61,107 nucleotides of DNA from Minisyncoccia bacterium. Its GTDB lineage: Bacteria > Patescibacteriota > Minisyncoccia > Phycocordibacterales > UBA918. The first letter of the stretch is position 1. Each line of letters opens with the position of its first letter. The stretch covers positions 1 to 61,107 of the forward strand of contig JBLIOC010000002.1 in NCBI GenBank assembly GCA_047639355.1, given 5' to 3'. Of this stretch, positions 30-49,175 are shown in pieces. The notes under the pieces are model-generated. The model had not been told where the DNA came from. It made no database searches and was given only the letters and a program-made list of their open reading frames with translations. The position numbers were made by a program, and so were the translations under genes.

Positions 30-138
30 GGTCCACGAGGACTCGAAAAGCTTTTGAGTCAGATTGTGAGCGAAGCAAAACAATCTGTCCAAAAGGTATA
101 CTGGTCATGTAATGACCGAGATTCCTCGTGGACCCGCA
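30..138 (+). ncRNA. tRNA-minihelix-like structured repeat unit (copy A1)
   Basis: A 12-bp closing helix ggtccacgagga/tcctcgtggacc plus a cgca tail mimics an acceptor+T-stem. Inside are a GAAAAG junction, helix cttttg/caaaag capped by hairpin cagattgt-GAGCGAAGCAAA-acaatctg, a GTATACTG junction, and hairpin ggtca-TGTAA-tgacc. Confidence 0.6.
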
Positions 139-182
139 AAATTAGGAAGAATAAAACGGAGTTTTAGATGACATAATTTTCA

Positions 183-288
183 GGTCCACGTGGACTCGAA
201 AAGCTTTTGAGGTAGATTTGACTGAAAGGAGAATATATCCAAAAGGTATACTGGTCATGTAATGACCGAGATTCCTCATGGACCCACA
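183..288 (+). ncRNA. tRNA-minihelix-like structured repeat unit (copy A2)
   Basis: Same flanks as A1 (ggtccacgtgga/tcctcatggacc). The central hairpin is replaced by tagattt-GACTGAAAGGA-gaatata. The TATACTG junction and UGUAA hairpin are the same. Confidence 0.6.
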
Positions 289-332
289 AAATTCGGAAGA
301 ATAAAACGGAGTTTTTAATGACATAATTTTCA

Positions 333-439
333 GGTCCACGTGGACTCGAAAAGGTTGCCAGATATTTTGTGACGCAGGAGCAAAATATCTGGCAACCTAT
401 ACTGGTCATGTAATGACCGAGACTCCTCGTGGACCCGCA
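333..439 (+). ncRNA. tRNA-minihelix-like structured repeat unit (copy A3)
   Basis: Same closing helix as A1/A2. The central helix is ggttgccagatattttg-TGACGCAGGAG-caaaatatctggcaacc, followed by the CTATACTG junction, the ggtca-TGTAA-tgacc hairpin and the 3' end gactcctcgtggacccgca. Confidence 0.6.
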
Positions 440-443
440 TGTA

Positions 444-477
444 GAAAATAGCTGCATTTGCAAGCTATTTTCTTTTT
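444..477 (+). terminator. Intrinsic-terminator-like hairpin closing the A1-A3 array
   Basis: Hairpin gaaaatagct...agctattttc followed by a T-run. Confidence 0.5.
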
Positions 478-596
478 CCCGAAGATATATTTCAGAACTT
501 TCACTTGCATTCATACTCAGCGTTGTGCATAATATAAACATCACGACGAAAAGGGGCCCAAACGGAGAAATACCGCAAGGCCCCCTTTTCTTTTCT

Positions 597-1130
597 CTAC
601 CTCTTTATTTTCTTGAGTGTCCCTGGATTTGAAAGATCTGCAAAATACTTACGGGTGATGACTTTATACAAAGAAGACGCGTAGCGTTGCTTTGGAAACA
701 GTATTTTTTCAAACTTATTTTCCTCAATCAAGAAATCTACCAACATTCGATAGTCACCATCACCAGAGACCAGTACGACCTTATCAAAATCTTCTTGCTT
801 ATACACACGTTTCATTATCGAGAAGATGATATCTGAGTCAACATTTCCTTTTTTAGTTCCTTTCACAGCAGCATTATGCTTACGGAACACTAGAATGAAA
901 CCTGCAGATTGAACAGCTTCGTAAAGCGTCTGGTATTGCTGCTCATCTTGCACGTAACCATGATAATAATATGCTTTCTTCACGCCATATCGTTCTGCAA
1001 GAAATACACGGAACTTTTGTAAATCTACGTACCACTCAGGGTCACGCTTTGTTGTACCCAAATGAAGGTTCCGACCGTCTATATAACAAATGTTGTTTCC
1101 TGTACTTTTCATATTTATCCATGGCACCAA
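597..1130 (-). CDS. NYN-domain (LabA/DUF88-like) putative RNase
   Basis: The 177-aa ORF has the motifs ICYIDGRNL, GNVDSDI and VLVSGDGDY, typical of NYN/LabA-like PIN-fold proteins. An alternative start is Met7 at 1112. Confidence 0.7.
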   Translation of the reverse strand: MVPWINMKSTGNNICYIDGRNLHLGTTKRDPEWYVDLQKFRVFLAERYGVKKAYYYHGYVQDEQQYQTLYEAVQSAGFILVFRKHNAAVKGTKKGNVDSDIIFSIMKRVYKQEDFDKVVLVSGDGDYRMLVDFLIEENKFEKILFPKQRYASSLYKVITRKYFADLSNPGTLKKIKR

Positions 1131-1715: not shown

Positions 1716-1798
1716 GCGTCGGTGGCAGAGTGGTCAATTGCAGGAGACTGTAAATCTCCCGGATTTATCCTACGCAGGTTCAAATCCTGCTCGGCGCA
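1716..1798 (+). tRNA. tRNA-Tyr (GTA), long variable arm, no encoded CCA
   Basis: Hand fold gives acceptor gcgtcgg/tcggcgc, anticodon stem ggaga/tctcc with loop ctGTAaa, and T-arm gcagg-ttcaaat-cctgc. Confidence 0.9.
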
Positions 1799-1833
1799 CA
1801 TTTTTAAGCACCCTTTGGGTGCTTTTAATATGA

Positions 1834-1962
1834 GCGCCGAGAGAAAGCTCTGGGAGAGCTTTCGTCAGGATTTGAAAAGCTTTTGAGGTAGATTTGACTA
1901 AAAGGAGAATATATCCAAAAGGTATACTGGTTGTGTAACAACCAAAATTCCTGCTCGGCACA
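1834..1962 (+). ncRNA. tRNA-like structured repeat unit Y1 (mimics the tRNA-Tyr 3' end)
   Basis: Helices gcgccgag/ctcggcac, hairpin gaaagctc-tggga-gagctttc, and helix caggattt/aaattcctg. The core (cttttg..GACTAAAAGGA..caaaag, GTATACTG, ggttg-TGTAA-caacc) is nearly identical to A2. The unit is followed by the terminator hairpin aaacggc-tta-gccgttttttt. Confidence 0.6.
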
Positions 1963-1992
1963 CAAATTTAAAACGGCTTAGCCGTTTTTTTT

Positions 1993-2193
1993 GCGCCGAG
2001 AGAGTGACTCAATGTCACTCACGTCAGGATTTGAAGAGGTTGCCAGACTATTTTCGACCGAAGGGAGAAAATATCGACTGTCAATTGAGTGAGTGAAATA
2101 GAAATTTATTTATATTTCCGAACGAAAGCAGACAGAAAGCTTTGCTTACAACCTGTACCGAAACTGTAAGTTTCAAAATTCCTACTTGGCGCA
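1993..2193 (+). ncRNA. tRNA-like structured repeat unit Y2 (expanded copy)
   Basis: Contains gcgccgaga..., hairpin gagtgac-tcaat-gtcactc, and helix caggattt/aaaattcct. Helix ggttg.../...caacc encloses tattttc-GACCGAAGGGA-gaaaata plus extra hairpins. It continues with GTACCG, gaaac-TGTAA-gtttc, and the 3' end cctacttggcgcaca. Confidence 0.5.
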
Positions 2194-2259
2194 CAAAGAA
2201 TAATAAATGTCTATACCTGCACTTCAAAATTAGAAGTGTTTACTGTATAGTAGTCAATT

Positions 2260-9769: not shown

Positions 9770-9842
9770 GTCCTGGTGGCGAAGTGGTTAACGCATCGGT
9801 TTGCAAAACCGACACGCGTGGGTTCGAATCCCACCCAGGACT
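9770..9842 (+). tRNA. tRNA-Cys (GCA)
   Basis: Acceptor gtcctgg/ccaggac, anticodon loop ttGCAaa, T-arm gtggg-ttcgaat-cccac. Confidence 0.9.
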
Positions 9843-9871
9843 CACTTGCAAAAAGCAAGCGAATTTCACTC

Positions 9872-9957
9872 GCCCGGGTGGTGGAATCGGTAGACACGAG
9901 GGACTTAAAATCCCTTGCTATTCAAATGGCGTGCGGGTTCAATTCCCGCCCCGGGCA
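9872..9957 (+). tRNA. tRNA-Leu (TAA), long variable arm
   Basis: Acceptor gcccggg/cccgggc, anticodon stem aggga/tccct with loop ctTAAaa, T-arm gcggg-ttcaatt-cccgc. Confidence 0.9.
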
Positions 9958-9978
9958 CTACTATGCTAGACTTTTCTT

Positions 9979-10265: not shown

Positions 10266-10338
10266 GCGCCCTTAGCTCAGTTGGTAGAGCAGCTCCCTCT
10301 TAAGGAGACGGTCCAAGGTTCGAGCCCTTGAGGGCGCA
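10266..10338 (+). tRNA. tRNA-Lys (CTT)
   Basis: Acceptor gcgccct/agggcgc, D-arm gctcagttggtagagc, anticodon loop ctCTTaa, T-arm caagg-ttcgagc-ccttg. Confidence 0.9.
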
Positions 10339-10382
10339 CACAGGTAAAACAAAACACTATTCATTTGAATAGTGTTTTGTTT

Positions 10383-10487
10383 TAGAAACTGAACTTCTTC
10401 AGTTTCGTGCCTGTGTGCGAGACGGAAGCATATATTTTGCTCGTTCGTAGAGCAAAATACAGCTGAGTCGGGGTCGAGAACACTTAG
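10383..10487 (+). repeat. B-type structured repeat, copy B1 ('empty site' version)
   Basis: tagaaa + hairpin ctgaa-cttc-ttcag + tttcgtgcctgtgtgcgagacgga + hairpin (atattttgctc/gagcaaaatac) + gagtcgggg|tcgagaacacttag. It is collinear with 11214-11409 except for a roughly 90-nt block. Confidence 0.5.
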
Positions 10488-10508
10488 TAGAATTTGCACG
10501 TAGTGCGA

Positions 10509-10535
10509 AATTATACTTAGTGATTCGTGACCACA
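10509..10535 (+). repeat. 27-nt direct repeat (left copy) flanking unit K
   Basis: aattatacttagtgattcgtgaccaca, repeated at 10654-10680 with 1 mismatch. Confidence 0.8.
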
Positions 10536-10540
10536 TTATC

Positions 10541-10647
10541 GGTATACATAATCAAGAGAGCCCGATTGAGACAGATTCGACCAGCAGGAGAATCTGTCCA
10601 ATTGGGATACTGGTCTCGTAGAGACAGAGACCCCTTGAGCCCTCACA
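10541..10647 (+). ncRNA. Structured repeat unit K (3' end resembles the tRNA-Lys 3' end)
   Basis: Helix ccgattg/caattgg capped by acagattc-GACCAGCAGGA-gaatctgt, then the GATACTG junction and hairpin gtctc-GTA-gagac. The 3' end gagaccccttgagccctcaca compares with tRNA-Lys gagcccttgagggcgcaca. The 5' boundary is uncertain. Confidence 0.45.
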
Positions 10648-10653
10648 ACGAGT

Positions 10654-10680
10654 AATTATACTTAGTGATTCGTGGCCACA
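10654..10680 (+). repeat. 27-nt direct repeat (right copy)
   Basis: aattatacttagtgattcgtggccaca. Confidence 0.8.
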
Positions 10681-10745: not shown

Positions 10746-10827
10746 GCGCGGGTGGCGAAATTGGTAGACGCGCTAGTTTTAGGCACTAGTGGAGCAATCC
10801 ATGGAGGTTCAAGTCCTCTCCCGCGCA
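10746..10827 (+). tRNA. tRNA-Leu (TAG), long variable arm
   Basis: Acceptor gcgcggg/cccgcgc, anticodon stem ctagt/actag with loop ttTAGgc, T-arm ggagg-ttcaagt-cctct. Confidence 0.9.
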
Positions 10828-10859
10828 CAAAGAAAACTGCCCTTGTGGCAGTTTTTGTT

Positions 10860-10990
10860 TGCTCGGGAAGTAAAGTCTGGGAGACTTTACGTGAGGACTT
10901 GAAAAGGTTGCCAGCAACTTTGTGAGCGAAGCGATACAAAGTGGCGACAACCTGTACTGAATCTGTAAGATTCAAGTCCTCTCCCGCGCA
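10860..10990 (+). ncRNA. tRNA-like structured repeat unit L1 (carries an exact 26-nt copy of the tRNA-Leu(TAG) 3' end)
   Basis: Hairpin taaagtct-ggga-gacttta, and helix gaggacttgaa/ttcaagtcctc. Helix ggttgcc../..ggcgacaacc is capped by aactttgt-GAGCGAAGCGAT-acaaagt, followed by CTGTACTG and gaatc-TGTAA-gattc. The 3' ttcaagtcctctcccgcgcacaaaga is identical to 10808-10833. Confidence 0.65.
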
Positions 10991-10995
10991 CAAAG

Positions 10996-11070
10996 AGCGA
11001 GGCACGCAATCAACCGAACGTCTCAAATACCAGTAAATGAGCCGTTCGGTGGATTGCGTGCCTCGCTTTT
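10996..11070. other. 25-bp near-perfect inverted repeat (long hairpin with a T-run)
   Basis: agcgaggcacgcaatcaaccgaacg - 22-nt loop - cgttcggtggattgcgtgcctcgct tttt. Confidence 0.7.
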
Positions 11071-11213
11071 CTCTTTTAGAGAAAACCGTGTATCACACAG
11101 GCGTGCGTAGCACGCTACTCGTTTAATTTTTGCTGGAAAAAAGTTCGCGCAAATGCTAGAATTACTACCAAAGGTAAACAAAAAACCAGTCACAAAGTGA
11201 CTGGTTTTTTGTT

Positions 11214-11409
11214 TAGAAAGCAAACCGCTTTGCTTTCGTACCTATGTGCGAGACGGAGACATGTTTTTCTCCCCTTTTCTTGGGAGAAAAACAGTCGAGC
11301 CGGGTGAAAAAGTCTGAGAGACTTTTGCAAGACCTTGCCAGTCATTTTGGAGTCTGCAAACAGAATGGCGACGAGGTGTACAGAATTCGTAGAATTCGAG
11401 AACACTTAG
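11214..11409 (+). ncRNA. B-type repeat, copy B2, carrying an A/L-type core ('filled site' version)
   Basis: The backbone matches B1. It has an extra block at about 11306-11395: aaaagtct-gaga-gactttt, ccttgccagtcattttg-GGAGTCTGCAAA-cagaatggcgacgagg, GTGTACAG, gaattc-GTA-gaattc. The block is homologous to the L1 core. Confidence 0.55.
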
Positions 11410-12446
11410 CTTAAGTGTACCCTCGTCTTGGCAAAAGGCTGTCGCTTACGAACGTAAAGATTGTAATAACGCGCTATCACCTTCTTTGAACGTTGAGGAA
11501 GCTTATCTACCTGGGCACAACCCCATGAACAGTAGCCATTTCGTTTCTCTATACAATCACCACAACCGATGAAAAGGGTGTGGCAAATTTGGTTCTTGCA
11601 GTGGTAATGAGTATCGCTTTTTTCTCTTTTGCACAAATGACAAGTAGAAATAATTTCATCGCTGATACGTTCACCTAACCGTTCGTCAAATACAAAGTTT
11701 TTGCCCTTGAACTTATTTGGTAACCCTTGCTGATCTACCTGACGAGCATAGTCAATAATACCGCCCCTTAGGTGTCGCACGTCTTTAAAACCATTATGCT
11801 TTAGCCATGCGCTTGCTTTCTCGCACCTAATCCCACCTGTACAGTACATAGCGACCTTTTTGTCTTTATGCTCTTTAAGAAGTTCCGGAGTTTTCTTAAG
11901 CTCCTCACGAAACGTCACCACGTTAGGAGTGACAGCACCTTCAAAATGACCAACCTCAGCTTCGTAATAATTTCGCATATCTACAACAACAGCGTCCGGA
12001 TCGTCAACATAGGCATTCATTTCCTCAGCTGTAAGATACTGGCCGGTTTCGGTTACATCAAACGAAGAATCTTCTAGCCCATCGGCTACGATTTTTTCCT
12101 TAACTTTTACCGTGAGTTTAAAAAATGACGGTAACTCCCCTTCTTCAACTGCAATTTTATACGGGATTCTTTGCAGTTCAGGCTGTATTTGTATCCAAGC
12201 GTCATATTGGTCCCAATATACCTTTGGGACGTTCATTTGGGCGTTAATGCCCTCGTGAGCTACATATATTCGGCCCAGACAATCAAGGTCAGACCATTTT
12301 GCCAAGATACGACTACGGAACTCTTCTGGGTCAGCGATTTTTACATAACGATAAAATGACAAAGTGACACGAGGACGCATATCTGCGGCGGCCGCCTGGC
12401 GCTTTTCGGCACGACTTCTAAGGTCACGAGTTTCGCTGGTTTTCAT
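11406..12446 (-). CDS. trhO: Rhodanese-domain tRNA uridine(34) hydroxylase-like protein (TrhO/YceA, UPF0176)
   Basis: 346 aa with the rhodanese active-site loop YCTGGIRCEKA and the Cys-rich C-terminal tail typical of this family. Confidence 0.8.
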   Translation of the reverse strand: MKTSETRDLRSRAEKRQAAAADMRPRVTLSFYRYVKIADPEEFRSRILAKWSDLDCLGRIYVAHEGINAQMNVPKVYWDQYDAWIQIQPELQRIPYKIAVEEGELPSFFKLTVKVKEKIVADGLEDSSFDVTETGQYLTAEEMNAYVDDPDAVVVDMRNYYEAEVGHFEGAVTPNVVTFREELKKTPELLKEHKDKKVAMYCTGGIRCEKASAWLKHNGFKDVRHLRGGIIDYARQVDQQGLPNKFKGKNFVFDERLGERISDEIISTCHLCKREKSDTHYHCKNQICHTLFIGCGDCIEKRNGYCSWGCAQVDKLPQRSKKVIARYYNLYVRKRQPFAKTRVHLS

Positions 12447-23375: not shown

Positions 23376-24506
23376 ATGTTGTTTGGAAAAACTACAACAG
23401 CTGTGGCTGAGAAGGAAGTTATTGGTTCCCCAGCTATTCTAAGTGTCATGGACCAATACTTGGTTGACACACCATTACCCCCAAAGGAAGGAGAAATCGT
23501 AGAAGGAGTTGTTTCGGCTATAGGGCGAGCACGTGTATATATTGACATAGCACCTTTTGGTACTGGTCTTATATACGGACGTGAGTACATGAACGCGCGA
23601 GACATTCTTCGTAAAGTCGCTCCCGGCGACACCATCGCTTCTAAAGTAGTGATGCCAGAAAATGAAGACGGTTACATCGAGCTTTCACTAAAAGAAGCTC
23701 GACAAGCTCTGATTTGGGCAGACGCAGAAGAAGCTGTGAAAAAAGGAACCATTCTAAGCCTTGAAGTAAAAGAAGCAAACAAAGGTGGGCTTATTATCGA
23801 CTGGCAAGGTATCCAAGGATTCTTACCAGCTTCTCAACTTTCATCTGAAAACTACCCACGAGTAACAGACGGCGACAAGGACAAAATCCTGACGGCCTTA
23901 AATGAACTAATTGGTAAGCACCTATCAGTAGTAGCAATTACAGCTGATCCAAAAGAACATAAACTTATCTTCTCCGAAAAGGGTCTCCAAGAAAAAGAAG
24001 ACAAGGAAGAAAAAGTAAACAAGTATGAAGTTGGTAACGTCCTGAAGGGCGAAGTAACTGGTGCTGTTGACTTTGGTGTGTTCGTAAAACTGGAACCAGG
24101 CTTAGAAGGTCTAGTTCACATTTCTGAACTAGACTGGGGTCTTGTTGAAGACACCAAGTCTCTCTACAAGATTGGCGACGTTGTCGAAGTGAAAGTGATT
24201 GAAGTTAAAGATGACAAAATCTCACTATCAATCAAACAACTCAAGGAAAACCCGTGGGTTACAGCGGGCAAAAAGTACAAGAAGGACCAAACTGTTGATG
24301 GCGTTGTCATTAAGTACAACAAGCACGGCGCTCTAGCCTCAATCGAGGAAGGTGTAGCTGGTCTAGTTCATGTTTCAGAATTCGAAACTGAAGAAAAACT
24401 TAAAACAGCTCTATCACTTGGTGGTGTCTACAAGTTTAAGATCACCTTCTTTGAACCAGGTGAACAAAAAATGACACTTTCGTACAAAGAAGCTAACGAA
24501 GCGTAA
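23376..24506 (+). CDS. rpsA: 30S ribosomal protein S1 (four S1 OB-fold repeats)
   Basis: 376 aa with repeated S1-domain patterns (G.V.G.V....GVFV.L..G.EGLVHISE). Confidence 0.9.
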   Translation: MLFGKTTTAVAEKEVIGSPAILSVMDQYLVDTPLPPKEGEIVEGVVSAIGRARVYIDIAPFGTGLIYGREYMNARDILRKVAPGDTIASKVVMPENEDGYIELSLKEARQALIWADAEEAVKKGTILSLEVKEANKGGLIIDWQGIQGFLPASQLSSENYPRVTDGDKDKILTALNELIGKHLSVVAITADPKEHKLIFSEKGLQEKEDKEEKVNKYEVGNVLKGEVTGAVDFGVFVKLEPGLEGLVHISELDWGLVEDTKSLYKIGDVVEVKVIEVKDDKISLSIKQLKENPWVTAGKKYKKDQTVDGVVIKYNKHGALASIEEGVAGLVHVSEFETEEKLKTALSLGGVYKFKITFFEPGEQKMTLSYKEANEA

Positions 24507-24516
24507 GATAAATACT

Positions 24517-24563
24517 GAAACACTAAAAAACTGGCCACCAACTGGCCAGTTTTTTAGTGTTTC
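24517..24563. terminator. 20-bp perfect bidirectional terminator between rpsA and pth
   Basis: gaaacactaaaaaactggcc - 7-nt loop - ggccagttttttagtgtttc. Confidence 0.75.
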
Positions 24564-24592
24564 AACTAGAAATATTTTTTTAATCTTCGGTT

Positions 24593-25180
24593 TTAGTTAA
24601 TTTCGCTCATAGCAGCTTCTACTCCGTCAGAAATTATAATCTCCAGAGCTTTCTGAACTTGCCCAAAAACTTCTGGTAGTTGTTTTTGTTCCTTATTAGA
24701 GAATGGCTTGAGTACAAAACGTTCCAGCGGCCCTCCCCCAGCAGGCCTCTTCACCTTCCTTGTCCAAAAGCTCTTCGAAGCAATTCCAATCCGCACGCGA
24801 ACAAATTCTTTTGAGTCTAATTTATCTATAATTGATTGCACACCATTATTTCCACCCGATCCACGTCCTTGAACAATTTTTAATTCACCAAAAGGTAAAT
24901 CTATATCATCATGTACGACAACAAGTTTCTCAATTTCTTTTTTTGGTACTAATTTAGCTGCAGCACTTCCAGAATTATTCATGAAAGTATTTGGATAGAG
25001 GACTGTCACTTCTTCATTTTTAATCACACCAACACTAACTCGTCCCGATAATGATCTCGATTCAGTTAAATTTGAAAATAGAAGTTTATCAAGTACACAA
25101 TCTAACGCCGACCACCCAACGTTATGTCGAGTGGTTTGATATTTTTCTCCAGGATTACCTAAGCCAACTACATAAAACAT
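24593..25180 (-). CDS. pth: Peptidyl-tRNA hydrolase
   Basis: Starts MFYVVGLGNPGEKYQTTRHNVGW. HDD and GGNNG(V) motifs are present. Confidence 0.9.
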   Translation of the reverse strand: MFYVVGLGNPGEKYQTTRHNVGWSALDCVLDKLLFSNLTESRSLSGRVSVGVIKNEEVTVLYPNTFMNNSGSAAAKLVPKKEIEKLVVVHDDIDLPFGELKIVQGRGSGGNNGVQSIIDKLDSKEFVRVRIGIASKSFWTRKVKRPAGGGPLERFVLKPFSNKEQKQLPEVFGQVQKALEIIISDGVEAAMSEIN

Positions 25181-25268
25181 GCAAGTATTGTACACGAAAA
25201 GCCTAGTGAAAAGCGAAGTTTGTTTTTACTCTAGAAATTTCGTATACTACAAACTAACTTAGTTACTT

Positions 25269-25904
25269 ATGTCAGTATTTTCACACAAAAAACCTCCTAC
25301 TGATGACTCTCCCTCTGAGTCTATTGAAGAAGTGAACAGCGAACATCCTCTCACTGAGATAGTTCGTTTCTCTATCATTGCCATTCTTATTGTTATCCCA
25401 ATTCGCATGTTTATTGCACAACCGTTTATCGTGTCCGGTGCCTCAATGAATGATACTTTCGCCAATGGCCAATATCTAATCGTCGATCAGGTAAGTTATT
25501 ATTTTGAAAAACCCAACCGAGGTGACGTAGTCGTTTTTCGTTACCCAAAGGATCCCTCAAAATTTTTCATTAAACGTGTGGTTGCATTGCCTGGAGAAAC
25601 TATTTCTATTAACGACAGTGCTGTCACTATCTCTAACAAAACTTTTCCTGATGGATTTATTTTAGAAGAACCCTACATTAAATCCATGAAACCTACTGCA
25701 GCCTTTGTCGAAACCCTTGGCGGTCGTGAATATTTTGTAATGGGAGACAATCGAGACCAAAGTTCTGATTCTAGGAGTTGGGGCGTATTGCAGGAAGAAC
25801 GAATAGTCGGACGAGCTATTTTTCGCTTATTCCCACCTAGCGTTATTGACTACTTACCAGGAGCACTCGAGGACATTAACGAGAGCTACGTACCACAATC
25901 TTAA
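25269..25904 (+). CDS. lepB: Signal peptidase I
   Basis: 211 aa with an N-terminal TM segment, SGASM (catalytic Ser), KRV (Lys box), and GDNRDQSSDSR. Confidence 0.9.
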   Translation: MSVFSHKKPPTDDSPSESIEEVNSEHPLTEIVRFSIIAILIVIPIRMFIAQPFIVSGASMNDTFANGQYLIVDQVSYYFEKPNRGDVVVFRYPKDPSKFFIKRVVALPGETISINDSAVTISNKTFPDGFILEEPYIKSMKPTAAFVETLGGREYFVMGDNRDQSSDSRSWGVLQEERIVGRAIFRLFPPSVIDYLPGALEDINESYVPQS

Positions 25905-25918
25905 TCGTTTAAATTGAA

Positions 25919-27094
25919 TTGCTTATGCCACACACATCGACAGAATTTCTCAAGGTAGCTAACAGTACAGCAGAACACTTTGGCTTCCATACCATAGAAC
26001 AATTAAGAAAGTCACCTGAATGTAAGCACTGCGAAACCTCAATGCCACATACTGTCACAGGAACAAACAAGCGCCTTGATAGCAACCAAGGCCTACTCTG
26101 TTCAGCCATCGGCACTTTTTGTGATGAAAAACTTCACTCATTAGAAAAACCTGTTCTTCTGTACGCCTTTGAACAAGTCCCCCGAACTGGTGAAACCGCT
26201 GTAACTTTTCATATTTTTAATGTTGAACGTAGTATTGCTGAAGCGATTCTTATACACGCCACAAGAGCCCTTATAACTGACCTAGGTTATGTTGACCATA
26301 CTGTGCGAATAAACTCATTAGGTGACACAGATTCACTTGCTAGATACAGTCGTGAACTAACAAACTTTCTCAAAAAGCGTCTAGACGTTATGCCTCCGAC
26401 AGCACGAGAATTAATAAAAGAACATCCTCTTAGCGCCCTTTCACACCTAATCGACACGAATCATGAGTTATCTTACCGGAGCCCTAATCCACTTGAATAT
26501 TTGAGTGACCCTAGCCGAAAGCACTTCCGTGAGATTATCGAGTATCTAGACATGAGTGAGACTCCATACGAAATAGACCCTAAAATGCTCAGACATCACG
26601 AATGTTATTCAGATGCAATCTTTTCAATCGACGTACAAAAAGAAGACCCTGCGGACGAAGTACCTGTTACAGTTACAGGTGGCCGTTTTGACGAATTCGT
26701 TTACCGGACCACCAGGACACGAACACCGGCAGTTGGAGCTGTTGTAACTCTCAAAAATAGTAAAGCCCCTGCTAGAGCACCAAGACCAAAGGTGAAAAAA
26801 CCTGCAATTTACGTGATACAGCTCGGATTCGGTCCAAAGATTAAAAGTTTATTACTAATAGATTCGCTTCGAAGGGCTGGTATTCAAGTTATCCACGATC
26901 TGGCTAGCAACTCCCTTTCAGACCAACTACGCGATGCGGAAAACAGAGAGGTTAAATACACCATTATTATCGGACAAAAAGAGTTCGCTGAGAATACAGT
27001 AATCTTCCGTGATATGGGTGTCAGAAACCAAGAATACGTTGACGTTGAAACCCTTATTCGTAGACTGAAACGTAAAACATCAGTCACTATTTAA
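25919..27094 (+). CDS. HisRS/HisZ-like class II aaRS paralogue with an anticodon-binding domain and degenerate catalytic motifs
   Basis: 391 aa, collinear with HisRS (INSLGD..., GGRFDEF, PAVGAVV, and a C-terminal HGTP-type domain IYVIQLG...KYTIIIGQKEF). However, motif 2 reads YAFEQVPRTGETAVTF and the HisA/B regions are not conserved. Confidence 0.55.
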   Translation: MLMPHTSTEFLKVANSTAEHFGFHTIEQLRKSPECKHCETSMPHTVTGTNKRLDSNQGLLCSAIGTFCDEKLHSLEKPVLLYAFEQVPRTGETAVTFHIFNVERSIAEAILIHATRALITDLGYVDHTVRINSLGDTDSLARYSRELTNFLKKRLDVMPPTARELIKEHPLSALSHLIDTNHELSYRSPNPLEYLSDPSRKHFREIIEYLDMSETPYEIDPKMLRHHECYSDAIFSIDVQKEDPADEVPVTVTGGRFDEFVYRTTRTRTPAVGAVVTLKNSKAPARAPRPKVKKPAIYVIQLGFGPKIKSLLLIDSLRRAGIQVIHDLASNSLSDQLRDAENREVKYTIIIGQKEFAENTVIFRDMGVRNQEYVDVETLIRRLKRKTSVTI

Positions 27095-27140
27095 AAGTAC
27101 TTGCACCATCTTCGGCAAGGTGGTATGCTCTCACCCACAT

Positions 27141-27389
27141 ATGGCAACCAATGTTGAAGTAGAAAAAAATAACAACGAAAGTAGTGCGAATGTAATACGT
27201 CGTTTTACTAAGCGTGTCCAGGGAGCAGGTATTGTTCCCAAGGTGCGTGGTGGACGATATCACAATCGCTTAAAGAGTAAGAATGTACAGCGTACAGCGA
27301 AGCTCAAGAAAATCGGTAAGCAAGAAGTTTACGAGAAACTTGTTAAACTTGGTAAAATTCAAGAATTTCGAGGGCGAGGGCGACGTTAA
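27141..27389 (+). CDS. rpsU: 30S ribosomal protein S21
   Basis: 82 aa, very basic, with a VIRRFTKRV...GRYHNRLKSKNVQR pattern. Confidence 0.75.
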   Translation: MATNVEVEKNNNESSANVIRRFTKRVQGAGIVPKVRGGRYHNRLKSKNVQRTAKLKKIGKQEVYEKLVKLGKIQEFRGRGRR

Positions 27390-27472
27390 TTTAAATCACT
27401 TTCACAATAAAACAGCCGGTACACAGTACCGGCTGTTTTCAGTCGTGTACCAATGTATAATGGCAAGTACCT

Positions 27473-27856
27473 ATGAAATCTTTTACTATCAGCAGTACCG
27501 TTAAGGAATACCCTAAAAAACACCCGTACGAAACAATGAAGCGTAAAATCCTTGGTGCAAAATATCAACTTTCCTTGGTATTTGTTGGTAAAACGCGAGC
27601 AGCCACCCTCAATAAAAACTACCGAAAAAAAACCTACTCTCCTAATGTTCTATCTTTTTCTCTTACTGAAGAAAACGGAGAAATCATTATCTGCCCGCGT
27701 GTCGCTAAAAATGAAGCTGCGCGCTTTAATCTTTCAGTAGATGGATATATCGCCTACTTATTTATCCACGGACTGCTTCATTTGAAGGGCTATGATCATG
27801 GCAATACAATGGAAAAATATGAGTCAAAGTATCTTAAAGTGTTCAATATTAAATAA
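27473..27856 (+). CDS. ybeY: rRNA maturation endoribonuclease YbeY
   Basis: 127 aa with the zinc motif HGLLHLKGYDH. Confidence 0.9.
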   Translation: MKSFTISSTVKEYPKKHPYETMKRKILGAKYQLSLVFVGKTRAATLNKNYRKKTYSPNVLSFSLTEENGEIIICPRVAKNEAARFNLSVDGYIAYLFIHGLLHLKGYDHGNTMEKYESKYLKVFNIK

Positions 27857-27858
27857 TT

Positions 27859-29028
27859 ATGTCAGAACACATCATTACTGGTATAGACGTAGGCACCTAT
27901 CATGTAAAAGTGGCTGTGGCCCGCTTACCAAAAAAGGGCAGCGGTGCGACTAAGCCAGAAATCATCGGCACTGGTTTATCTGAAAGTCGAGGTCTTAAGA
28001 ATGGATACATTATGCAAGAGGCTGATGTCGCCCGCAGTATCAAGAGCGCAATTGCTCAGGCTGAAAAAAACGCTGGCGTGACTATAAAACGAGCACATGT
28101 TGCAATTGGCAGCATCGGCCTAGAGGAGACATACTCCCATGGCGAAATCATACCCCTACGAGCCGACTCAGAAATTACGAACTCTGACTTGGAAAAGGTC
28201 ATACAAGATAGTGAGGAGCGAATCATGGACCATATACCAAACCGTCGCATACTTCACAGTATTCCATTAAGATACATAATCGACGGTACAGAGGTTTTAG
28301 GTCGTCCACAGGGATTAAAAGGCACCAAACTAGAAGTTGATAGTCTTTTCATAACAACTTATGAACAACACATAAACGACCTCATTAGTACCATAGAAGG
28401 ACTAGGAGTGTACGTTGAAGATGTTATCGCTTCCCCTCTGGCAGCAAGCTTTGTAATGCTTTCCAAAGCTCAGAAACGAGCCGGTTGCGTACTAACAAAT
28501 ATTGGGGCGGAAACTACTTCAATTGTAATCTTCGAAGACTCTACACCAATCTCACTCAAGATTTTTCCAGTTGGTTCAAATGACGTCACCAATGATATTG
28601 CGCTCGGTCTCCGTATACCGCTTGAAGACGCTGAAAAAATTAAGCGAGGAGCCATGACGAGTGCTACCTTTTCAAAGAAAAAACTTGATGAAATTATCCA
28701 AGAGAGACTACGTACTATTTTTACCCTAATCGATAATCATTTAAAGAAAATAGAAAGAGACGGTTTGTTACCAGCTGGGGCAATTTTGACAGGAGGTGGT
28801 GCAAATGTTTCGGGTACGGTAGAAACGGCAAAATCAGTTTTGGAGCTTCCAGCTAGGACAGCCACTCTCGATATTGGTAAGAATATAAAAATACGAGACG
28901 CCTCTTGGGCAGTCGCTTATGGGTTATGTATGTGGGGTGCAAACGATACTGAAGAAACTTCTACCATTGGAATAGTAAGACACACTAGGCGCAACATTGT
29001 CTCTTGGCTAAGCCAGTTTCTCCCGTAA
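27859..29028 (+). CDS. ftsA: Cell division protein FtsA
   Basis: 389 aa with an actin-fold (GIDVGTY..., TGGGANVSG). It lies directly upstream of ftsZ. Confidence 0.9.
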   Translation: MSEHIITGIDVGTYHVKVAVARLPKKGSGATKPEIIGTGLSESRGLKNGYIMQEADVARSIKSAIAQAEKNAGVTIKRAHVAIGSIGLEETYSHGEIIPLRADSEITNSDLEKVIQDSEERIMDHIPNRRILHSIPLRYIIDGTEVLGRPQGLKGTKLEVDSLFITTYEQHINDLISTIEGLGVYVEDVIASPLAASFVMLSKAQKRAGCVLTNIGAETTSIVIFEDSTPISLKIFPVGSNDVTNDIALGLRIPLEDAEKIKRGAMTSATFSKKKLDEIIQERLRTIFTLIDNHLKKIERDGLLPAGAILTGGGANVSGTVETAKSVLELPARTATLDIGKNIKIRDASWAVAYGLCMWGANDTEETSTIGIVRHTRRNIVSWLSQFLP

Positions 29029-33047: not shown

Positions 33048-33119
33048 GGTCCCATCGTCTAATGGTTAGGACGCTAGGTTTTCATCCTAGAAATCGGAGT
33101 TCGATTCTCCGTGGGATCA
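33048..33119 (+). tRNA. tRNA-Glu (TTC)
   Basis: Acceptor ggtccca/tgggatc, anticodon stem ctagg/cctag with loop ttTTCat, T-arm cggag-ttcgatt-ctccg. Confidence 0.9.
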
Positions 33120-33230
33120 CAAATTTTTTAAGCTAAATTTTAGGCCACTTTTTTGCATACCACTAAAGTTGTTCCAAATTTCTTAGAGATTAGTTTTGAT
33201 GTTATTTCTTAATGATATATAATTATCTAT

Positions 33231-33820: not shown

Positions 33821-34937
33821 TAATGGGGATGAGGTTAATTAAAGCCTGAACCGCAACCAGACAAAAACATACCCACTAAGGTACGCTAGGAATGTTAACA
33901 ACCTAGTAACCATTAGTGGATATGCACACACAGCATAAGTCTTTTAAACAAATACGGCAAATAGAAAGAGAGCGAATAGAAGAATTGATACAAGCAGACC
34001 AAACACCAAAACAAATAGCGCTTATTCTCGGTAGACACCCAGCAACTATTGTCAGAGAGATACAAAGAAACAGCAAAGGTGATGGTTCATACACAACCAT
34101 CTACGCCCAAAAGAAAACCATAGAACGACGCTACTCAGCTAAAGAGTCATCAAGAAAGATAGAGAATGATTCAGACCTAGAAACATCCATCATCGCTCTC
34201 ATGTCCGACACTGATCCTATGCGTGGAGACTGGTCTCCAGAAGTTATTGCTAACAGTTCTCTCAAAGGAAGAGTTTCACACACCACTATCTACGCCTGGG
34301 TTAAAAGGTCACGTCCAGAGCTGAAGAAGCTTCTGCACTTCCAGGGACGGAGAAGAGCAAGATATGGCTCTGTGGCTACCCGACTGCACCGTGAGATGTC
34401 TCTACCTTCGATTGAAGATCGACCTCAGAGTGTGGAGTCTAGGAGTCATATTGGACACTTTGAGGGTGACACAGTTATCGTCAATGGTGGCAGAATACAT
34501 ACGTTGGTAGAACGGAAAAGTCGGTTTCTGATTGGTAGTTTAATTACTCACAAAGGAGTTGGTTTAGCTATAAAGATCTCTGAAGACGCAGTGGAAAAAC
34601 TGTCTGTTCTACCACTGCAATACAGACAGACTATTACTTATGATCAAGGTAGTGAGTTTGCTTGGTGGGATGAGATTGAAAAAGGACTTGATGGTACGAA
34701 GATATATTTTGCTCACCCACACTCACCTTGGGAACGCGGGACTAACGAACGACATAATGGATTGATGCGACGATATATTCCAAAGAAGAAATACTCTGGT
34801 ATCATTACTCATGAAGATGTTGCAGAGACGGTTAGGAGAATAAACCATCGTCCGCGGAAGATTCTTAACTGGCGTACTTCTTGTGAAGTTTTTGGGAAGT
34901 GTTGCGGTAGAAGCTTTAATTAACCGTATCCCCGTTA
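33821..34937 (+). mobile_element. IS30-family insertion sequence (about 1.1 kb)
   Basis: Terminal inverted repeats are taatggggatgaggttaattaaagc (33821-33845) and the reverse complement of gctttaattaaccgtatccccgtta (34913-34937), matching at about 21/25. It contains a single transposase ORF whose stop lies in the right IR. Confidence 0.8.
33916..34923 (+). CDS. IS30-family DDE transposase
   Basis: 335 aa with an N-terminal HTH, and a DDE/rve core with GHFEGDTV, TYDQGSEF and HSPWERGTNERHNGLMRRYIPK. The ATG alternative is at 33922. Confidence 0.9.
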   Translation: MDMHTQHKSFKQIRQIERERIEELIQADQTPKQIALILGRHPATIVREIQRNSKGDGSYTTIYAQKKTIERRYSAKESSRKIENDSDLETSIIALMSDTDPMRGDWSPEVIANSSLKGRVSHTTIYAWVKRSRPELKKLLHFQGRRRARYGSVATRLHREMSLPSIEDRPQSVESRSHIGHFEGDTVIVNGGRIHTLVERKSRFLIGSLITHKGVGLAIKISEDAVEKLSVLPLQYRQTITYDQGSEFAWWDEIEKGLDGTKIYFAHPHSPWERGTNERHNGLMRRYIPKKKYSGIITHEDVAETVRRINHRPRKILNWRTSCEVFGKCCGRSFN

Positions 34938-36203: not shown

Positions 36204-36236
36204 CTTGGGTTCGAACGTCCTCTACCCAGCGGAGCA
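36204..36236 (+). repeat. Isolated tRNA-3'-end-like fragment
   Basis: cttgg-gttcgaacgtcctcta-cccag-cggagca. The acceptor-like end cggagca is the same as in unit 36281-36410. A similar fragment is at 41490-41524. It is followed by terminator hairpin 36242-36274. Confidence 0.4.
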
Positions 36237-36280
36237 TCCAACAGAAAAACACTCCCAAAGGAGTGTTTTTCTGTTGTCGA

Positions 36281-36410
36281 TGCTCCGAGCAGAAAGTGGA
36301 GCTTTCGGGCAGGGTTCGAAGAGATGGAGTTTATCGCACGAGCGTTAGTGAAGTACGATACGACATCTTTACCGTTCCTGTATGGAAAGAAATTCCTGCC
36401 GCCGGAGCAA
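36281..36410 (+). ncRNA. tRNA-like structured repeat unit (divergent copy)
   Basis: Perfect 7-bp acceptor-like helix tgctccg/cggagca, hairpin gaaag-tggag-ctttc, T-stem-like ggcagg/cctgcc enclosing gttcgaag + helix agatg/catct + ttcc-TGTAT-ggaa. Confidence 0.5.
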
Positions 36411-48926: not shown

Positions 48927-49038
48927 TTTGTGATAAAATCTTTTAGATTTAACTTCAAACACTTCCAGTTAATTGTTAGAAACTCGTCCAATCCCCGGAG
49001 CAATCAGAAAAAACCCTTATTATAAGGGTTTTTCTTTG

Positions 49039-49175
49039 CGAGAGGAAGCGGATAAAGGTGTATAGATACCTTTAGTCAGGACTCGAAAAGCTTTTGAGGT
49101 AGTTTCGACCACAGTGAGAATAAATCCAAAAGGTATACTGCTTGTGTAACAAGAGAAATTCCTGCCGCCGGAACA
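49039..49175 (+). ncRNA. tRNA-like structured repeat unit (copy at 49 kb)
   Basis: Hairpin aaaggt-gtatagat-accttt, and helix caggactc/gaaattcctg. The core cttttgag..GACCACAGTGA..tccaaaag, GTATACTG, cttg-TGTAA-caag is nearly identical to Y1/A2. The 3' end cctgccgccggaaca matches 36395-36409. Confidence 0.55.

What the first reader, a model, noticed from the sequence alone, without database searches (positions are those of the whole stretch)
30..478. Tandem array of tRNA-minihelix-like RNAs with a conserved three-way junction and swapped central hairpins
Three head-to-tail units (30-138, 183-288, 333-439; period about 150 nt) fold on paper into the same architecture. First, a 12-bp closing helix (ggtccacgWgga / tcctcRtggacc, then cgca) has the length of a tRNA acceptor+T-stem stack. 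Second, where the T-loop would be, there is a GAAAAG junction. Third, a long helix is capped by an 11-12-nt loop. Fourth, a TATACTG junction follows. Fifth, a short hairpin carries a UGUAA loop.

The flanks and the 44-nt spacers are almost identical between copies. The central helix, in contrast, has a different sequence in each copy (cagattgt/acaatctg; tagattt/gaatata; ccagatattttg/caaaatatctgg). Its loop stays similar (GAGCGAAGCAAA, GACTGAAAGGA, TGACGCAGGAG).

The same design recurs at 1834, 1993, 10541, 10860, 11306, 36281 and 49039. In those copies there are compensatory changes in the closing helix, in the P3-like helix (cttttg/caaaag vs ggttgcc/ggcaacc vs ccgattg/caattgg), and in the small hairpin (ggtca/tgacc, ggttg/caacc, gaatc/gattc, gaaac/gtttc, gaattc/gaattc with loop closing pair U-A vs C-G). 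This pattern indicates selection on RNA structure.

I cannot assign it to tRNA, tmRNA, hammerhead, CRISPR or any other class I recognise. The ORFs called across it are repeat artefacts.
Basis: seen in the sequence. Interest (0 to 1): 0.88.

Follow-up and report, generated by a model that had tools for sequence, protein, structure and literature searches.

The report
Structured mini-cassettes stacked behind tRNA genes
Tiny gene-less DNA units of about 130-200 bases sit in tandem just behind tRNA genes of a Kaiserbacteria-like (CPR) bacterium; each has a conserved Y-shaped fold between an inverted and a direct copy of that tRNA gene's last 21 bases, and no described RNA or mobile-element family matches it.

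Summary
One metagenome scan returned at least 120 more contigs, and the fold covaries strongly (90% of cells paired against 70% when shuffled). Rfam has no match.

The "tRNA minihelix" is made from the neighbouring tRNA gene itself. The 3' arm is a direct repeat of that gene from T54 to one base past the discriminator. The 5' arm is its reverse complement. That 5' arm pairs as well or better with the upstream tRNA end, including 3 bases of gene trailer and not CCA.

Whole units come and go between related strains. Units with other internal modules share the same arm design. One spacer-plus-module backbone occurs behind five different tRNAs with re-tailored arms. No integrase, reverse transcriptase or other gene is linked.

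Best reading (about 0.45): gene-less cassettes that integrate at the T loop of tRNA genes. In this reading the attachment core lies in a folded single-strand hairpin, as in integron attC or CTX attP. Whether the folded species is DNA or RNA is unresolved. Main rival (about 0.3): a tRNA-scaffolded small RNA gene.

The parts
30..138 (+). Unit A1 of the tandem array. 5' arm 30-41; complement of T loop plus junction ctcGAAAAG 42-50; long helix P3 51-95; junction GTATACTG 96-103; hairpin with GTA triloop 104-117; linker 118-122; 3' arm 123-134; cgca 135-138.
   Evidence: Read. Model R1 scores 101 bits, E 2e-27. RNAfold gives the three-way junction.
139..182 (+). Spacer between A1 and A2. It has no strong terminator and contains TGaCATAAT 7 nt before the next 5' arm (an extended -10-like motif). 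It is homologous to the spacer after tRNA-Trp in L246.
   Evidence: The promoter reading is an inference; the simple promoter scan was uninformative.
183..288 (+). Unit A2. 5' arm 183-194; P3 204-245 (same P3 type as the unit at 1832-1964); J2 246-253; hairpin 254-267; 3' arm 273-284 (two mismatches with the 5' arm).
   Evidence: 85.6 bits.
289..332 (+). Spacer between A2 and A3, nearly identical to 139-182.
333..439 (+). Unit A3. 5' arm 333-344; P3 354-397 (GTTGCC/GGCAACC type); J2 398-404; hairpin 405-418; 3' arm 424-435.
   Evidence: 75.2 bits.
443..478 (+). Terminator-like hairpin plus T run that closes the array.
   Evidence: Read (gtagaaaatagctgcatttgcaagctattttcttttt).
1716..1799 (+). 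tRNA-Tyr(gta). Its last 21 nt (from T54 at 1779) are the template of the arms of the two following units.
1832..1964 (+). Unit B1 behind tRNA-Tyr. 5' arm gagcgccgag; extra hairpin A (GGG loop) 1842-1864; caggatttGAAAAG; module; 3' arm attcctgctcggcacaca 1947-1964.
   Evidence: 85.2 bits. The 5' arm equals the reverse complement of the tRNA 3' strand (GCGCCGA), not the tRNA's own 5' strand (GCGTCGG).
1993..2195 (+). Unit B2, second unit behind tRNA-Tyr, with an insertion of about 100 nt in P3.
   Evidence: partial hit 2096-2196, E 1e-3.
10746..10828 (+). tRNA-Leu(tag). Segment 10808-10828 is repeated at 10971-10991.
10860..10992 (+). Unit D1. 5' arm 10860-10869; hairpin A 10870-10890; gaggacttGAAAAG 10893-10906; P3; TGTACTG 10953-10959; hairpin 10960-10972; direct repeat of the tRNA-Leu 3' end 10971-10992.
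   Evidence: 95.5 bits. Identity with the tRNA runs through the 7 T-loop bases and 7 nt past the acceptor end.
10553..10648 (+). Unit C1, a divergent copy about 215 nt behind tRNA-Lys (10266-10339), flanked by a 27-nt direct repeat.
   Evidence: (37.9 bits).
11316..11419 (+). Unit D2, a divergent copy nested inside a second module type.
   Evidence: (38.3 bits).
36279..36409 (+). Unit E1, an orphan copy of the GAAGAG/ATGGAG variant, preceded by a tRNA 3'-end remnant (about 36208-36248) and a terminator. Its 5' arm gatgctccg matches the remnant plus its trailer (cggagcatc).
   Evidence: 23.8 bits. The same variant lies behind tRNA-Lys in L250 and L251.
49039..49175 (+). Unit F1, an orphan copy with no intact tRNA upstream. 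Its 3' arm is attcctgccgccggaaca.
   Evidence: 75.2 bits.

Best explanation
Each unit is a small (about 130-200 bp), gene-less integrative cassette. These cassettes have colonised the 3' ends of tRNA genes in Kaiserbacteria-like Patescibacteria.

A cassette consists of:
- a copy of the tRNA gene's last ~21 nt (T54 to discriminator+1) plus a few trailer bases;
- a spacer hairpin, usually a terminator;
- the reverse complement of that tRNA segment, sometimes split by an extra hairpin A;
- a conserved Y-shaped module: GAAAAG, long helix P3, GTRTACTG, and a short hairpin with a GTA triloop.

Shown by the sequence geometry: recombination takes place across the 21-nt tRNA segment, with its left edge exactly at the start of the T loop. 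This rebuilds the tRNA gene from the cassette's copy and pushes the old 3' end to the far side. It produces the direct repeat, the tandem arrays and the whole-unit insertions and deletions.

Inferred: in the free (circular) form the attachment core sits in the stem of a long hairpin, capped by the spacer hairpin at one end and the Y-shaped module at the other. The short hairpin stacked on this stem reproduces the duplex of the tRNA gene's T-arm region. The active substrate would then be a folded single strand, recombined by a trans-encoded tyrosine recombinase, as with integron attC sites and the CTX phage attP(+).

Inferred: the arms are re-tailored to each tRNA partly automatically, because the direct copy is the displaced target. 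The inverted copy could be corrected by hairpin-templated (quasipalindrome) repair against the selected tRNA end.

Not resolved: whether the folded species is ssDNA or a transcript, and which enzyme acts.
For: 1. Position. 76 of 142 cores have a same-strand tRNA ending 52-100 nt upstream, and 31 anticodons are involved.
2. Direct repeat. The 3' arm equals the last 20 nt of that tRNA: 30 of 76 match 20/20, with a mean of 16.7 against 10.95 for mismatched pairs. The left edge is sharp: identity runs 7-8 nt left of the T-stem 3' strand in 28 of 39 units, which is exactly the T loop. Most of the remaining units keep their own 7 nt in place of the T loop; I read this as a second junction class. The right edge most often lies 2 nt past the acceptor strand, in 14 of 39.
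3. Inverted copy. The 5' arm matches the upstream tRNA better than its own 3' arm in 40 of 72 units and never worse. Its duplex energy with the upstream end is better in 29 units, equal in 19 and worse in 1. It continues into the gene's trailer rather than CCA (29 against 9). All this fits a cassette-borne core embedded in a hairpin.
4. Mobility. L164 carries exactly one extra unit, bounded by the repeats, compared with L156 and L177. Orthologous tRNAs in four related genomes differ in occupancy, and L250 keeps only a truncated remnant.
5. Modularity. Other internal modules use the same arms. One spacer-plus-module backbone occurs behind tRNA-Met, -Tyr and three tRNA-Ser with different arms.
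6. Single-strand folding under selection. 90.1% of cells are paired against 69.6% when shuffled and 35-53% when slid. 22 of 26 pairs show double changes. G-U pairs outnumber A-C by about 2:1 on the + strand.
7. All three hairpin caps are mostly G-rich triloops (GTA; GAA, GCA or GTA on a C-G pair, as in GCGAAGC; GGG), which are typical of stable DNA mini-hairpins (the stability statement is my own knowledge).
8. Most units have a strong terminator immediately upstream and no evident promoter.
Against: - No recombinase was found. 148 neighbouring proteins show no enriched family and no integrase or RT among the listed families. The window's neighbours are housekeeping genes.
- No free circle or truly empty orthologous site was observed.
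- Some features are typical of functional RNAs: conserved junction nucleotides, tandem G-A pairs and CUUG caps.
- The array in question has no terminators between units and has an extended -10-like motif placed to start transcription at the 5' arm.
- A circle of 150-200 nt is very small for any known recombination substrate.
- Re-tailoring of the inverted arm by hairpin-templated repair is an inference only.
Confidence: 0.45

Rival explanations
1. The units are genes for a new class of small structured RNA. The 5' and 3' arms form a tRNA-like acceptor/T helix that acts as a handle for processing and stability (RNase P, RNase Z, CCA addition), and the Y-shaped module carries the function. Association with tRNA genes and the matching arms would be by-products of spread by duplication and recombination at tRNA ends.
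For: - Strong covariation, with G-U pairs favoured on the tRNA-sense strand.
- Conserved junction nucleotides, tandem G-A pairs and CUUG caps.
- Always the same strand as the tRNA.
- A terminator follows most units.
- In the tRNA-Trp arrays (this window and L246) the spacer has no terminator and has TGnCATAAT or TGnTATATT 7 nt before the 5' arm.
- Hairpin A sits at or near the acceptor/T boundary, where the body of a tRNA would be.
Against: - The 5' arm fits the upstream tRNA end plus its gene trailer better than its own 3' arm.
- The helix runs past the discriminator and does not mimic CCA.
- The acceptor part pairs well in only about half of the units.
- Most units lie directly behind a strong terminator with no recognisable promoter.
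- The spacer hairpin travels with the following module, not with the preceding one.
- There is no Rfam relative.
Confidence: 0.3
2. A cis-acting device of tRNA transcription units. The inverted copy extends the tRNA terminator hairpin down into the tRNA 3' end. The downstream direct copy plus module acts as a decoy that decides whether read-through transcripts can still fold into tRNA (an insulator or attenuator).
For: The 5' arm is complementary to the tRNA end plus trailer across the terminator. The left hairpin has a mean free energy of -54.7 kcal/mol over 98 nt. Two mutually exclusive pairings exist.
Against: - It does not explain tandem arrays, orphan copies without a tRNA (36279-36409, 49039-49175), or alternative modules.
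- It does not explain rapid gain and loss at orthologous tRNAs.
- Half of the tRNAs manage without a unit.
Confidence: 0.08
3. A retro-element or small circular RNA. The unit would be copied by a reverse transcriptase primed by, or template-switching on, the tRNA, and rolling-circle copying would give tandem DNA arrays behind the tRNA gene (as with retrozymes or the Neurospora retroplasmid).
For: Head-to-tail arrays sit directly behind tRNA genes in the sense orientation. There is a 20-nt complement of the tRNA 3' end, like a primer-binding site. The circular form would be rod-like.
Against: - The complement follows the gene's trailer, not CCA (29 against 9).
- No CCA is found at junctions.
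- No RT is linked.
- No known self-cleaving ribozyme is detected.
Confidence: 0.07
4. Decayed attachment-site scars or pseudo-tRNA fragments left by ordinary integrase-carrying islands or prophages.
For: The direct repeat of the tRNA 3' end has the classical attL/attR geometry.
Against: - Units are complete, 130-200 bp, and conserved in sequence and structure across more than 120 contigs, with compensatory changes.
- There are no integrase genes or island cargo between the repeats.
- The same design occurs behind 31 anticodon types.
Confidence: 0.05

Closest known systems
Integron gene cassettes and attC sites (including CALIN arrays)
   Same: Tandem arrays of units, each ending in an imperfect inverted repeat with a variable or structured centre. 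Recombination uses a folded single strand. The recombinase recognises structure rather than sequence. ORF-less cassettes exist. (Own knowledge of Bouvier/Mazel work; geometry here.)
   Different: The arms here are copies of whichever tRNA gene is upstream, whereas attC has conserved R/L boxes (RYYYAAC/GTTRRRY). The centre is the conserved part. The platform is a tRNA T loop, not attI. No integrase is adjacent. Units are only 130-200 bp.
CTX phage attP(+) and other Xer-dependent integrating elements
   Same: The attachment site is built by two inverted copies of the host target folded into a forked hairpin. An unpaired central region is possible, like the second junction class. Integration is tandem. 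The host recombinase acts in trans. (Own knowledge, Val et al. 2005.)
   Different: The target is dif, not tRNA genes. The element is a 7-kb phage. There is no conserved Y-shaped module, and the stem is not re-tailored to many different targets.
Genomic islands and prophages that integrate into the 3' part of tRNA genes (T-loop sublocation, Williams 2002)
   Same: The element carries the tRNA 3' segment so the gene is rebuilt. The displaced copy forms the far direct repeat. The crossover is at the T loop. Tandem accretion occurs. (Own knowledge; geometry.)
   Different: There is no integrase, no cargo and total size under 200 bp. An additional inverted copy of the core is present. One conserved backbone serves at least 31 anticodon types.
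tRNA-like structures (tmRNA tRNA-like domain, YrlA, viral TLS, mascRNA)
   Same: A 12-bp helix made of acceptor plus T-stem sequence is possible in many copies. An extra hairpin lies near the acceptor/T boundary.
   Different: There is no T loop, D arm or anticodon arm. The helix runs past the discriminator into trailer complement. There are no Rfam or ARAGORN hits. The acceptor part is unpaired in about half of the units.
MITEs, REP/REPIN and other small non-coding repeats
   Same: Short, gene-less, multi-copy, hairpin-forming, and mobilised in trans.
   Different: Here the terminal repeats are not element-specific but copy the insertion target. Insertion is restricted to tRNA 3' ends in one orientation. 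The internal structure is conserved with covariation.

Membership tests
tRNA (RF00005) or tmRNA | Cloverleaf with D, anticodon and T arms (or a tRNA-like domain plus tag reading frame), detectable by covariance model or ARAGORN. | tested here: not met
   cmscan (gathering threshold and E up to 10) and ARAGORN call only the six true tRNAs and none of the units.
Any Rfam 15 family (ribozymes, sRNAs, CRISPR repeats, riboswitches) | Score at or near the family's gathering threshold. | tested here: not met
   No hit to the units in the window or in 8 related loci. Only sub-threshold generic hairpin matches appear.
Integron attC / gene cassette | Conserved R''/R' boxes (RYYYAAC ... GTTRRRY) shared by all sites. 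| tested here: not met
   Arms differ with the tRNA (31 anticodons). Only the T-loop part (TTCRANY and its complement) is shared.
Integron attC / gene cassette | Imperfect hairpin of one strand with a structured or variable centre, in tandem arrays of excisable units. | tested here: met
   Covarying fold, arrays, and a one-unit insertion/deletion between strains.
Integron attC / gene cassette | Integron integrase gene and attI next to the array. | tested here: not met
   No integrase in the window or in 10-kb flanks of 4 syntenic loci. There is no enrichment among 148 neighbouring proteins.
tRNA-gene-integrating element (attL/attR) | Direct repeat of the tRNA 3' segment at the distal end, with an intact tRNA at the proximal end. 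| tested here: met
   The repeat runs from T54 to discriminator+1 with sharp edges.
tRNA-gene-integrating element (attL/attR) | Element-encoded integrase and cargo between the repeats. | tested here: not met
   Only 110-180 nt with no ORF lie between the repeats.
CRISPR array | Short identical repeats (about 25-40 nt) alternating with unique spacers of similar size. | tested here: not met
   The period is 150 nt. The variable part is a base-paired helix inside a conserved scaffold, and the 44-nt 'spacers' are the conserved part.
Retron ncRNA or tRNA-primed retroelement | Adjacent reverse transcriptase, or a primer-binding site complementary to the mature tRNA end including CCA. | tested here: not met
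   No RT nearby. The complement follows the gene trailer, not CCA.
MITE | Element-specific terminal inverted repeats plus a short target-site duplication. | tested here: not met
   The inverted repeats are copies of the target, not of the element, and the duplication is 21 nt of tRNA.
Folded single-stranded DNA recombination site (functional class) | Recombination of the folded strand by a tyrosine recombinase. | not testable with these tools
   This needs biochemistry or junction reads. Only the geometry is consistent.

The most novel reading that the evidence does not exclude
A programmable, integron-like system whose docking platform is the T loop of any tRNA gene. Gene-less cassettes of about 150 nt would fold as single strands into a mimic of the target duplex. 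They would be inserted and excised by a trans-acting enzyme, and would re-tailor both arms to a new tRNA by copying the target. This would make them the smallest known site-specific mobile elements, with base-pair-defined targeting. Alternatively, the Y-shaped module is a new functional RNA or ribozyme that rides on these cassettes.
Probability: 0.3. Interest if true: 0.9.

Novelty: categorically new. Interest (0 to 1): 0.82.

Why it matters
- If the cassette reading is right, tRNA genes in CPR bacteria act as landing pads for arrays of gene-less, structured mini-elements. Their attachment site would be a folded mimic of the target, a principle known so far only from integrons and CTX-type phages. 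Here it would be re-addressable to at least 31 anticodon types.
- That would give a natural example of sequence-programmable site-specific insertion in very small genomes.
- It would explain part of the intergenic DNA next to tRNA genes in Patescibacteria.
- It would need to be masked when calling tRNA pseudogenes, ORFs and att sites.
- If the RNA reading is right, this is a widespread new RNA class with a built-in tRNA-derived handle.
- Either way the family is large, conserved and absent from Rfam.

Tried and rejected
- Viral contigs gave a single true hit, L122, which looks cellular.
- blastn of a unit against the phage and plasmid collections found nothing.
- The simple promoter and terminator scans were uninformative.
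- Hammerhead and hairpin ribozyme, T-box, K-turn and anticodon-mimic readings were considered from the sequence. I dropped them because the core motifs are missing and Rfam gives no hit. The 'UGUAA' loop is a GUA triloop on a covarying pair, not a 7-nt anticodon loop.
- The primer-binding-site (mature tRNA) reading was rejected, because the complement follows the trailer and not CCA.
- A pseudoknot between the GUA triloop and UAC of the junction was judged sterically implausible. This was not tested.
- The exact-sequence look-up of the NYN protein found nothing.
- G-T against A-C counts in the closing helix were not decisive (11 against 8).
- The paper search failed four times, so all literature statements rest on my own knowledge.
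Full report
**1. The observation**

Tandem Repeats Finder reports one long-period array in the window: 22-436, period 150, 2.7 copies, 85% matches. Reading the sequence gives three units at 30-138, 183-288 and 333-439.

- a 12-nt 5' arm, ggtccacgWgga;
- ctcGAAAAG;
- a long helix;
- (G)TATACTG;
- a short hairpin, ggtcaTGTAAtgacc;
- a 5-nt linker;
- the 3' arm tcctcRtggacc, followed by cgca or caca.

The closing helix is perfect in unit 1. It has two mismatches in unit 2 and one in unit 3. The 44-nt spacers are nearly identical, and the inner part of the long helix differs between units.

Motif counts are far above chance, at 5-6 matches against 0.00-0.06 expected. A covariance model (R1) run on the whole window without filters finds exactly ten copies, all on the + strand. 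The next best hit has E = 0.013.

**2. Not a known family**

Rfam 15 gives only the six tRNAs, at gathering thresholds for the whole window and at E up to 10 or 1 for the two regions with units. ARAGORN gives the same six. Eight related loci also yield only tRNAs. blastn finds nothing in the phage and plasmid collections.

**3. A large family**

All 136 matches there have the full architecture. R1 finds 157 copies in 100 of these loci, including copies the pattern misses. One hit lies in an IMG/VR contig, behind tRNA-Ser.

The window itself is ordinary chromosome: ClpB, IF-2, GyrA, S1, FtsA, FtsZ and T4SS pilins. The closest named homologues of a neighbouring protein are from Candidatus Kaiserbacteria and other Patescibacteria.

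**4. The fold is under selection**

I aligned 126 distinct cores and counted pairs on a structure with the closing helix, P3 and the small hairpin.
- 90.1% of cells are paired, against 69.6% in shuffles and 35-53% when partners are slid.
- 22 of 26 pairs show changes on both sides.
- The covariation score is 0.53 against 0.17.

The small hairpin's loop is T-GTA-A in 95 sequences and C-GTA-G in 16. It is therefore a GUA triloop on a covarying pair. The tip of P3 is structured (GA, 2-3 bp, a 3-4-nt cap, GA or GAA) rather than an open 11-12-nt loop. On this strand G-U pairs outnumber A-C by about 2:1 in P3 and the hairpin.

One caveat applies. The junctions GAAAAG and RTACTG and the base of P3 were fixed by my search pattern. 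Their conservation can only be judged from the model-only hits, which show GAAGAG, GAAG, TACCG and TACAG.

**5. The arms are the neighbouring tRNA gene**

76 of 142 cores have a same-strand tRNA ending 52-100 nt upstream. Most of the rest are second or third units. 31 anticodons are involved.

The 3' arm is a direct repeat of the last 20 nt of that tRNA. 30 of 76 match 20/20, with a mean of 16.7 against 10.95 for mismatched tRNA/unit pairs.

The repeat has sharp edges. To the left, identity runs 7-8 nt beyond the T-stem 3' strand in 28 of 39 units, which is exactly the T loop from T54. Most of the other units keep their own 7 nt instead (AGAAATT, CGAAACT and similar). I read this as a second junction class about 7 nt further in. 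To the right, identity most often ends 2 nt after the acceptor strand (14 of 39).

The 5' arm is the reverse complement of the same segment, including the T loop. For example, TTCAAGT in tRNA-Leu gives ACTTGAA in unit D1, and TTCAAAT in tRNA-Tyr gives ATTTGAA in B1. It is a true complement of the 3' strand, not a copy of the tRNA's own 5' strand: B1 has GCGCCGA where the tRNA has GCGTCGG. The 'GAA' of the GAAAAG junction is therefore the complement of T54-C56.

In this window:
- B1 and B2 follow tRNA-Tyr.
- D1 follows tRNA-Leu(tag).
- C1 lies behind tRNA-Lys.
- The array at 30-439 matches arrays that follow tRNA-Trp in L246, L194 and L170, with a homologous spacer. The tRNA-Trp gene should therefore lie just upstream of the window start.

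**6. Two alternative pairings**

The second pairing is as good or better.
- Over the 12 T-side positions, the arm matches the tRNA better than its own 3' arm in 40 of 72 units. It matches equally in 32 and never worse.
- Duplex energy favours the upstream partner in 29 units, is equal in 19 and favours the downstream partner in 1.
- The complementarity continues 3 nt beyond the discriminator into the gene's own trailer rather than CCA (29 against 9 among genes without encoded CCA, many with 4/4 matches).

So the arm is matched to the gene (or precursor), not to a mature tRNA end. A primer-binding-site reading is unlikely. The acceptor part of the arm is well matched (at least 7 of 9) in only about half of the units. 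A 10-nt T-side match is the common denominator (for example the L251 unit).

**7. Cassette behaviour**

The strain pair L156/L177 against L164 differs by exactly one unit bounded by the 21-nt repeats. That extra unit has the same arm design (complement of the tRNA segment ending in TCGAAAAG) but a different internal module, GGGGTCGCGTCGCTTAGTAC...GTACTTAGCAAAGGTGAC. The same second module, and a third one, occur in other arrays and in this window at about 10400-10535 and split around 11316-11419.

The spacer hairpin goes with the module that follows it, not with the one before it. One spacer (aaataccaaaaccc...gggttttgttgtattt) plus the first module occurs behind tRNA-Met, tRNA-Tyr and three tRNA-Ser species, with arms re-tailored to each.

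Orthologous tRNA clusters in four related genomes differ in occupancy:
- tRNA-Leu(taa) carries a unit only in L251.
- tRNA-Leu(tag) carries two units here and one each in L253 and L251.
- In L250 only a truncated remnant remains (terminator, 5' arm and half of hairpin A).

Orphan units without an intact tRNA exist (36279-36409 and 49039-49175). The first still follows a tRNA 3' remnant whose trailer its 5' arm matches. No protein family is enriched among 148 neighbouring proteins, and no integrase or RT is near the units in the window or in syntenic loci.

**8. Interpretation**

The geometry is that of elements that integrate into the 3' part of tRNA genes. The gene is rebuilt by an element-borne copy from the T loop onward, and the displaced original end sits at the far junction. 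Here, however, the whole element is 130-200 bp and gene-less.

What is new is the inverted copy. In the circular form it would place the attachment core (plus trailer) in the stem of a long hairpin, capped by the spacer hairpin on one side and the Y-shaped module on the other. In units whose repeat starts at T54, the short hairpin uses T54-T55 as its last two pairs. It therefore stacks directly on that stem. Together they reproduce the duplex of the tRNA gene's T-arm region, with P3 branching from the opposite strand.

This is the logic of integron attC sites and of the CTX phage attP(+), where a folded single strand mimics the double-stranded target and a recombinase supplied in trans exchanges one strand (own knowledge). 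The second junction class, about 7 nt further in, would fit the two cleavage positions that flank a 7-bp overlap of a tyrosine recombinase. That step is inference.

The re-tailoring of the arms can be explained in part automatically, since the direct copy is the displaced target. For the inverted copy, hairpin-templated (quasipalindrome) correction against the tRNA end is a candidate, because the tRNA end is held constant by selection. That would also explain why complementarity runs into the trailer. This too is inference.

I give this reading about 0.45.

**9. Rivals**

The main rival, at about 0.3, is a new small RNA whose tRNA-derived helix serves as a processing handle.

In its favour:
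- the + strand covariation with G-U pairs;
- RNA-like motifs (tandem G-A pairs, CUUG caps);
- the position of hairpin A near the acceptor/T boundary;
- for the very array in the finding, the absence of terminators between units and an extended -10-like TGnCATAAT or TGnTATATT 7 nt before the 5' arm, conserved in L246.

Against it:
- the better fit of the 5' arm to the upstream gene plus trailer;
- the terminator directly upstream of most units, with no promoter;
- the linkage of the spacer with the following module.

The two readings are not exclusive, because the module could be an RNA cargo of a mobile cassette. A cis-regulatory reading, a retro-element or circular-RNA reading, and a 'decayed att scar' reading are less likely, for the reasons given in their entries.

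**10. Limits**

- I could not obtain expression data, excised circles, a truly empty orthologous site or a candidate enzyme.
- The genome-contig scan was wasted on a loose pattern.
- The paper search failed four times. Comparisons with integrons, CTX, tRNA-integrating islands, DNA mini-hairpins and quasipalindrome correction therefore rest on my own knowledge.
- The family alignment is biased by the seed pattern.
- Related sequences inflate shuffle-based statistics. The slid-partner control and the number of pair types argue that the structure is real nonetheless.

Noticed in passing
window 10400-10535, and split at about 11231-11300 plus 11394-11440: A second conserved module (tgtgcgagacgg + hairpin + gagtcGGGGTCGAGAACACTTAG ... 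ACTTAGTGATTCGTGAC) lies behind tRNA-Lys and again around unit D2. The same module type, with tRNA-derived arms, occurs in L164, L171, L147, L246 and L251. Rfam has no match.
   Followed up: partly
window 10509-10535 and 10654-10680: A 27-nt direct repeat, aattatacttagtgattcgtgRccaca, flanks unit C1. The same repeat flanks two units behind tRNA-Lys in L250, which suggests insertion into, or duplication of, the 3' end of the second module.
   Followed up: partly
window 2040-2150: Unit B2 carries an insertion of about 100 nt inside its long helix, with further hairpins. It is the only copy in the window with such an expansion.
   Followed up: no
window about 36208-36248 and about 48985-49005: tRNA 3'-end-like fragments (gggttcgaacgtcctctacccagcggagca; ccaatccccggagca) followed by terminators lie upstream of the two orphan units without a detectable tRNA. 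The first overlaps the end of ORF 35019-36194.
   Followed up: partly
window, all six tRNA genes (1716-1799, 9770-9958, 10266-10339, 10746-10828, 33048-33120): None of the tRNA genes encodes CCA, and most end with discriminator + CA. Three of the six (Cys, Leu-taa, Glu) carry no unit.
   Followed up: partly
window about 24000-28000: Cumulative GC skew reaches its minimum here, and gene orientation changes from mostly - to mostly +. This may mark a replication origin. The tRNA genes and units in the left part would then be head-on to replication.
   Followed up: no
window 33916-34923 (+): A 335-aa ORF whose only hit is an HTH_38 domain, as found in IS30-type transposases. It lies 0.8 kb after tRNA-Glu and 1.3 kb before orphan unit E1.
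   Followed up: no
window 597-1130 (-): An NYN-domain (predicted RNase) gene is convergent with the tandem array. Proximity may be chance, and no such gene was enriched near units elsewhere.
   Followed up: partly
window 10993-11076: A very long, nearly perfect hairpin (gagcgaggcacgcaatcaaccgaacg ... cgttcggtggattgcgtgcctcgc) plus a T run follows unit D1. It is much longer than the other terminators.
   Followed up: no
window 164-544 (-): A 126-aa ORF (GTG start) is listed across units A2-A3 and the terminator. It was not tested, but the region evolves by helix-preserving changes, so the ORF is probably spurious.
   Followed up: no
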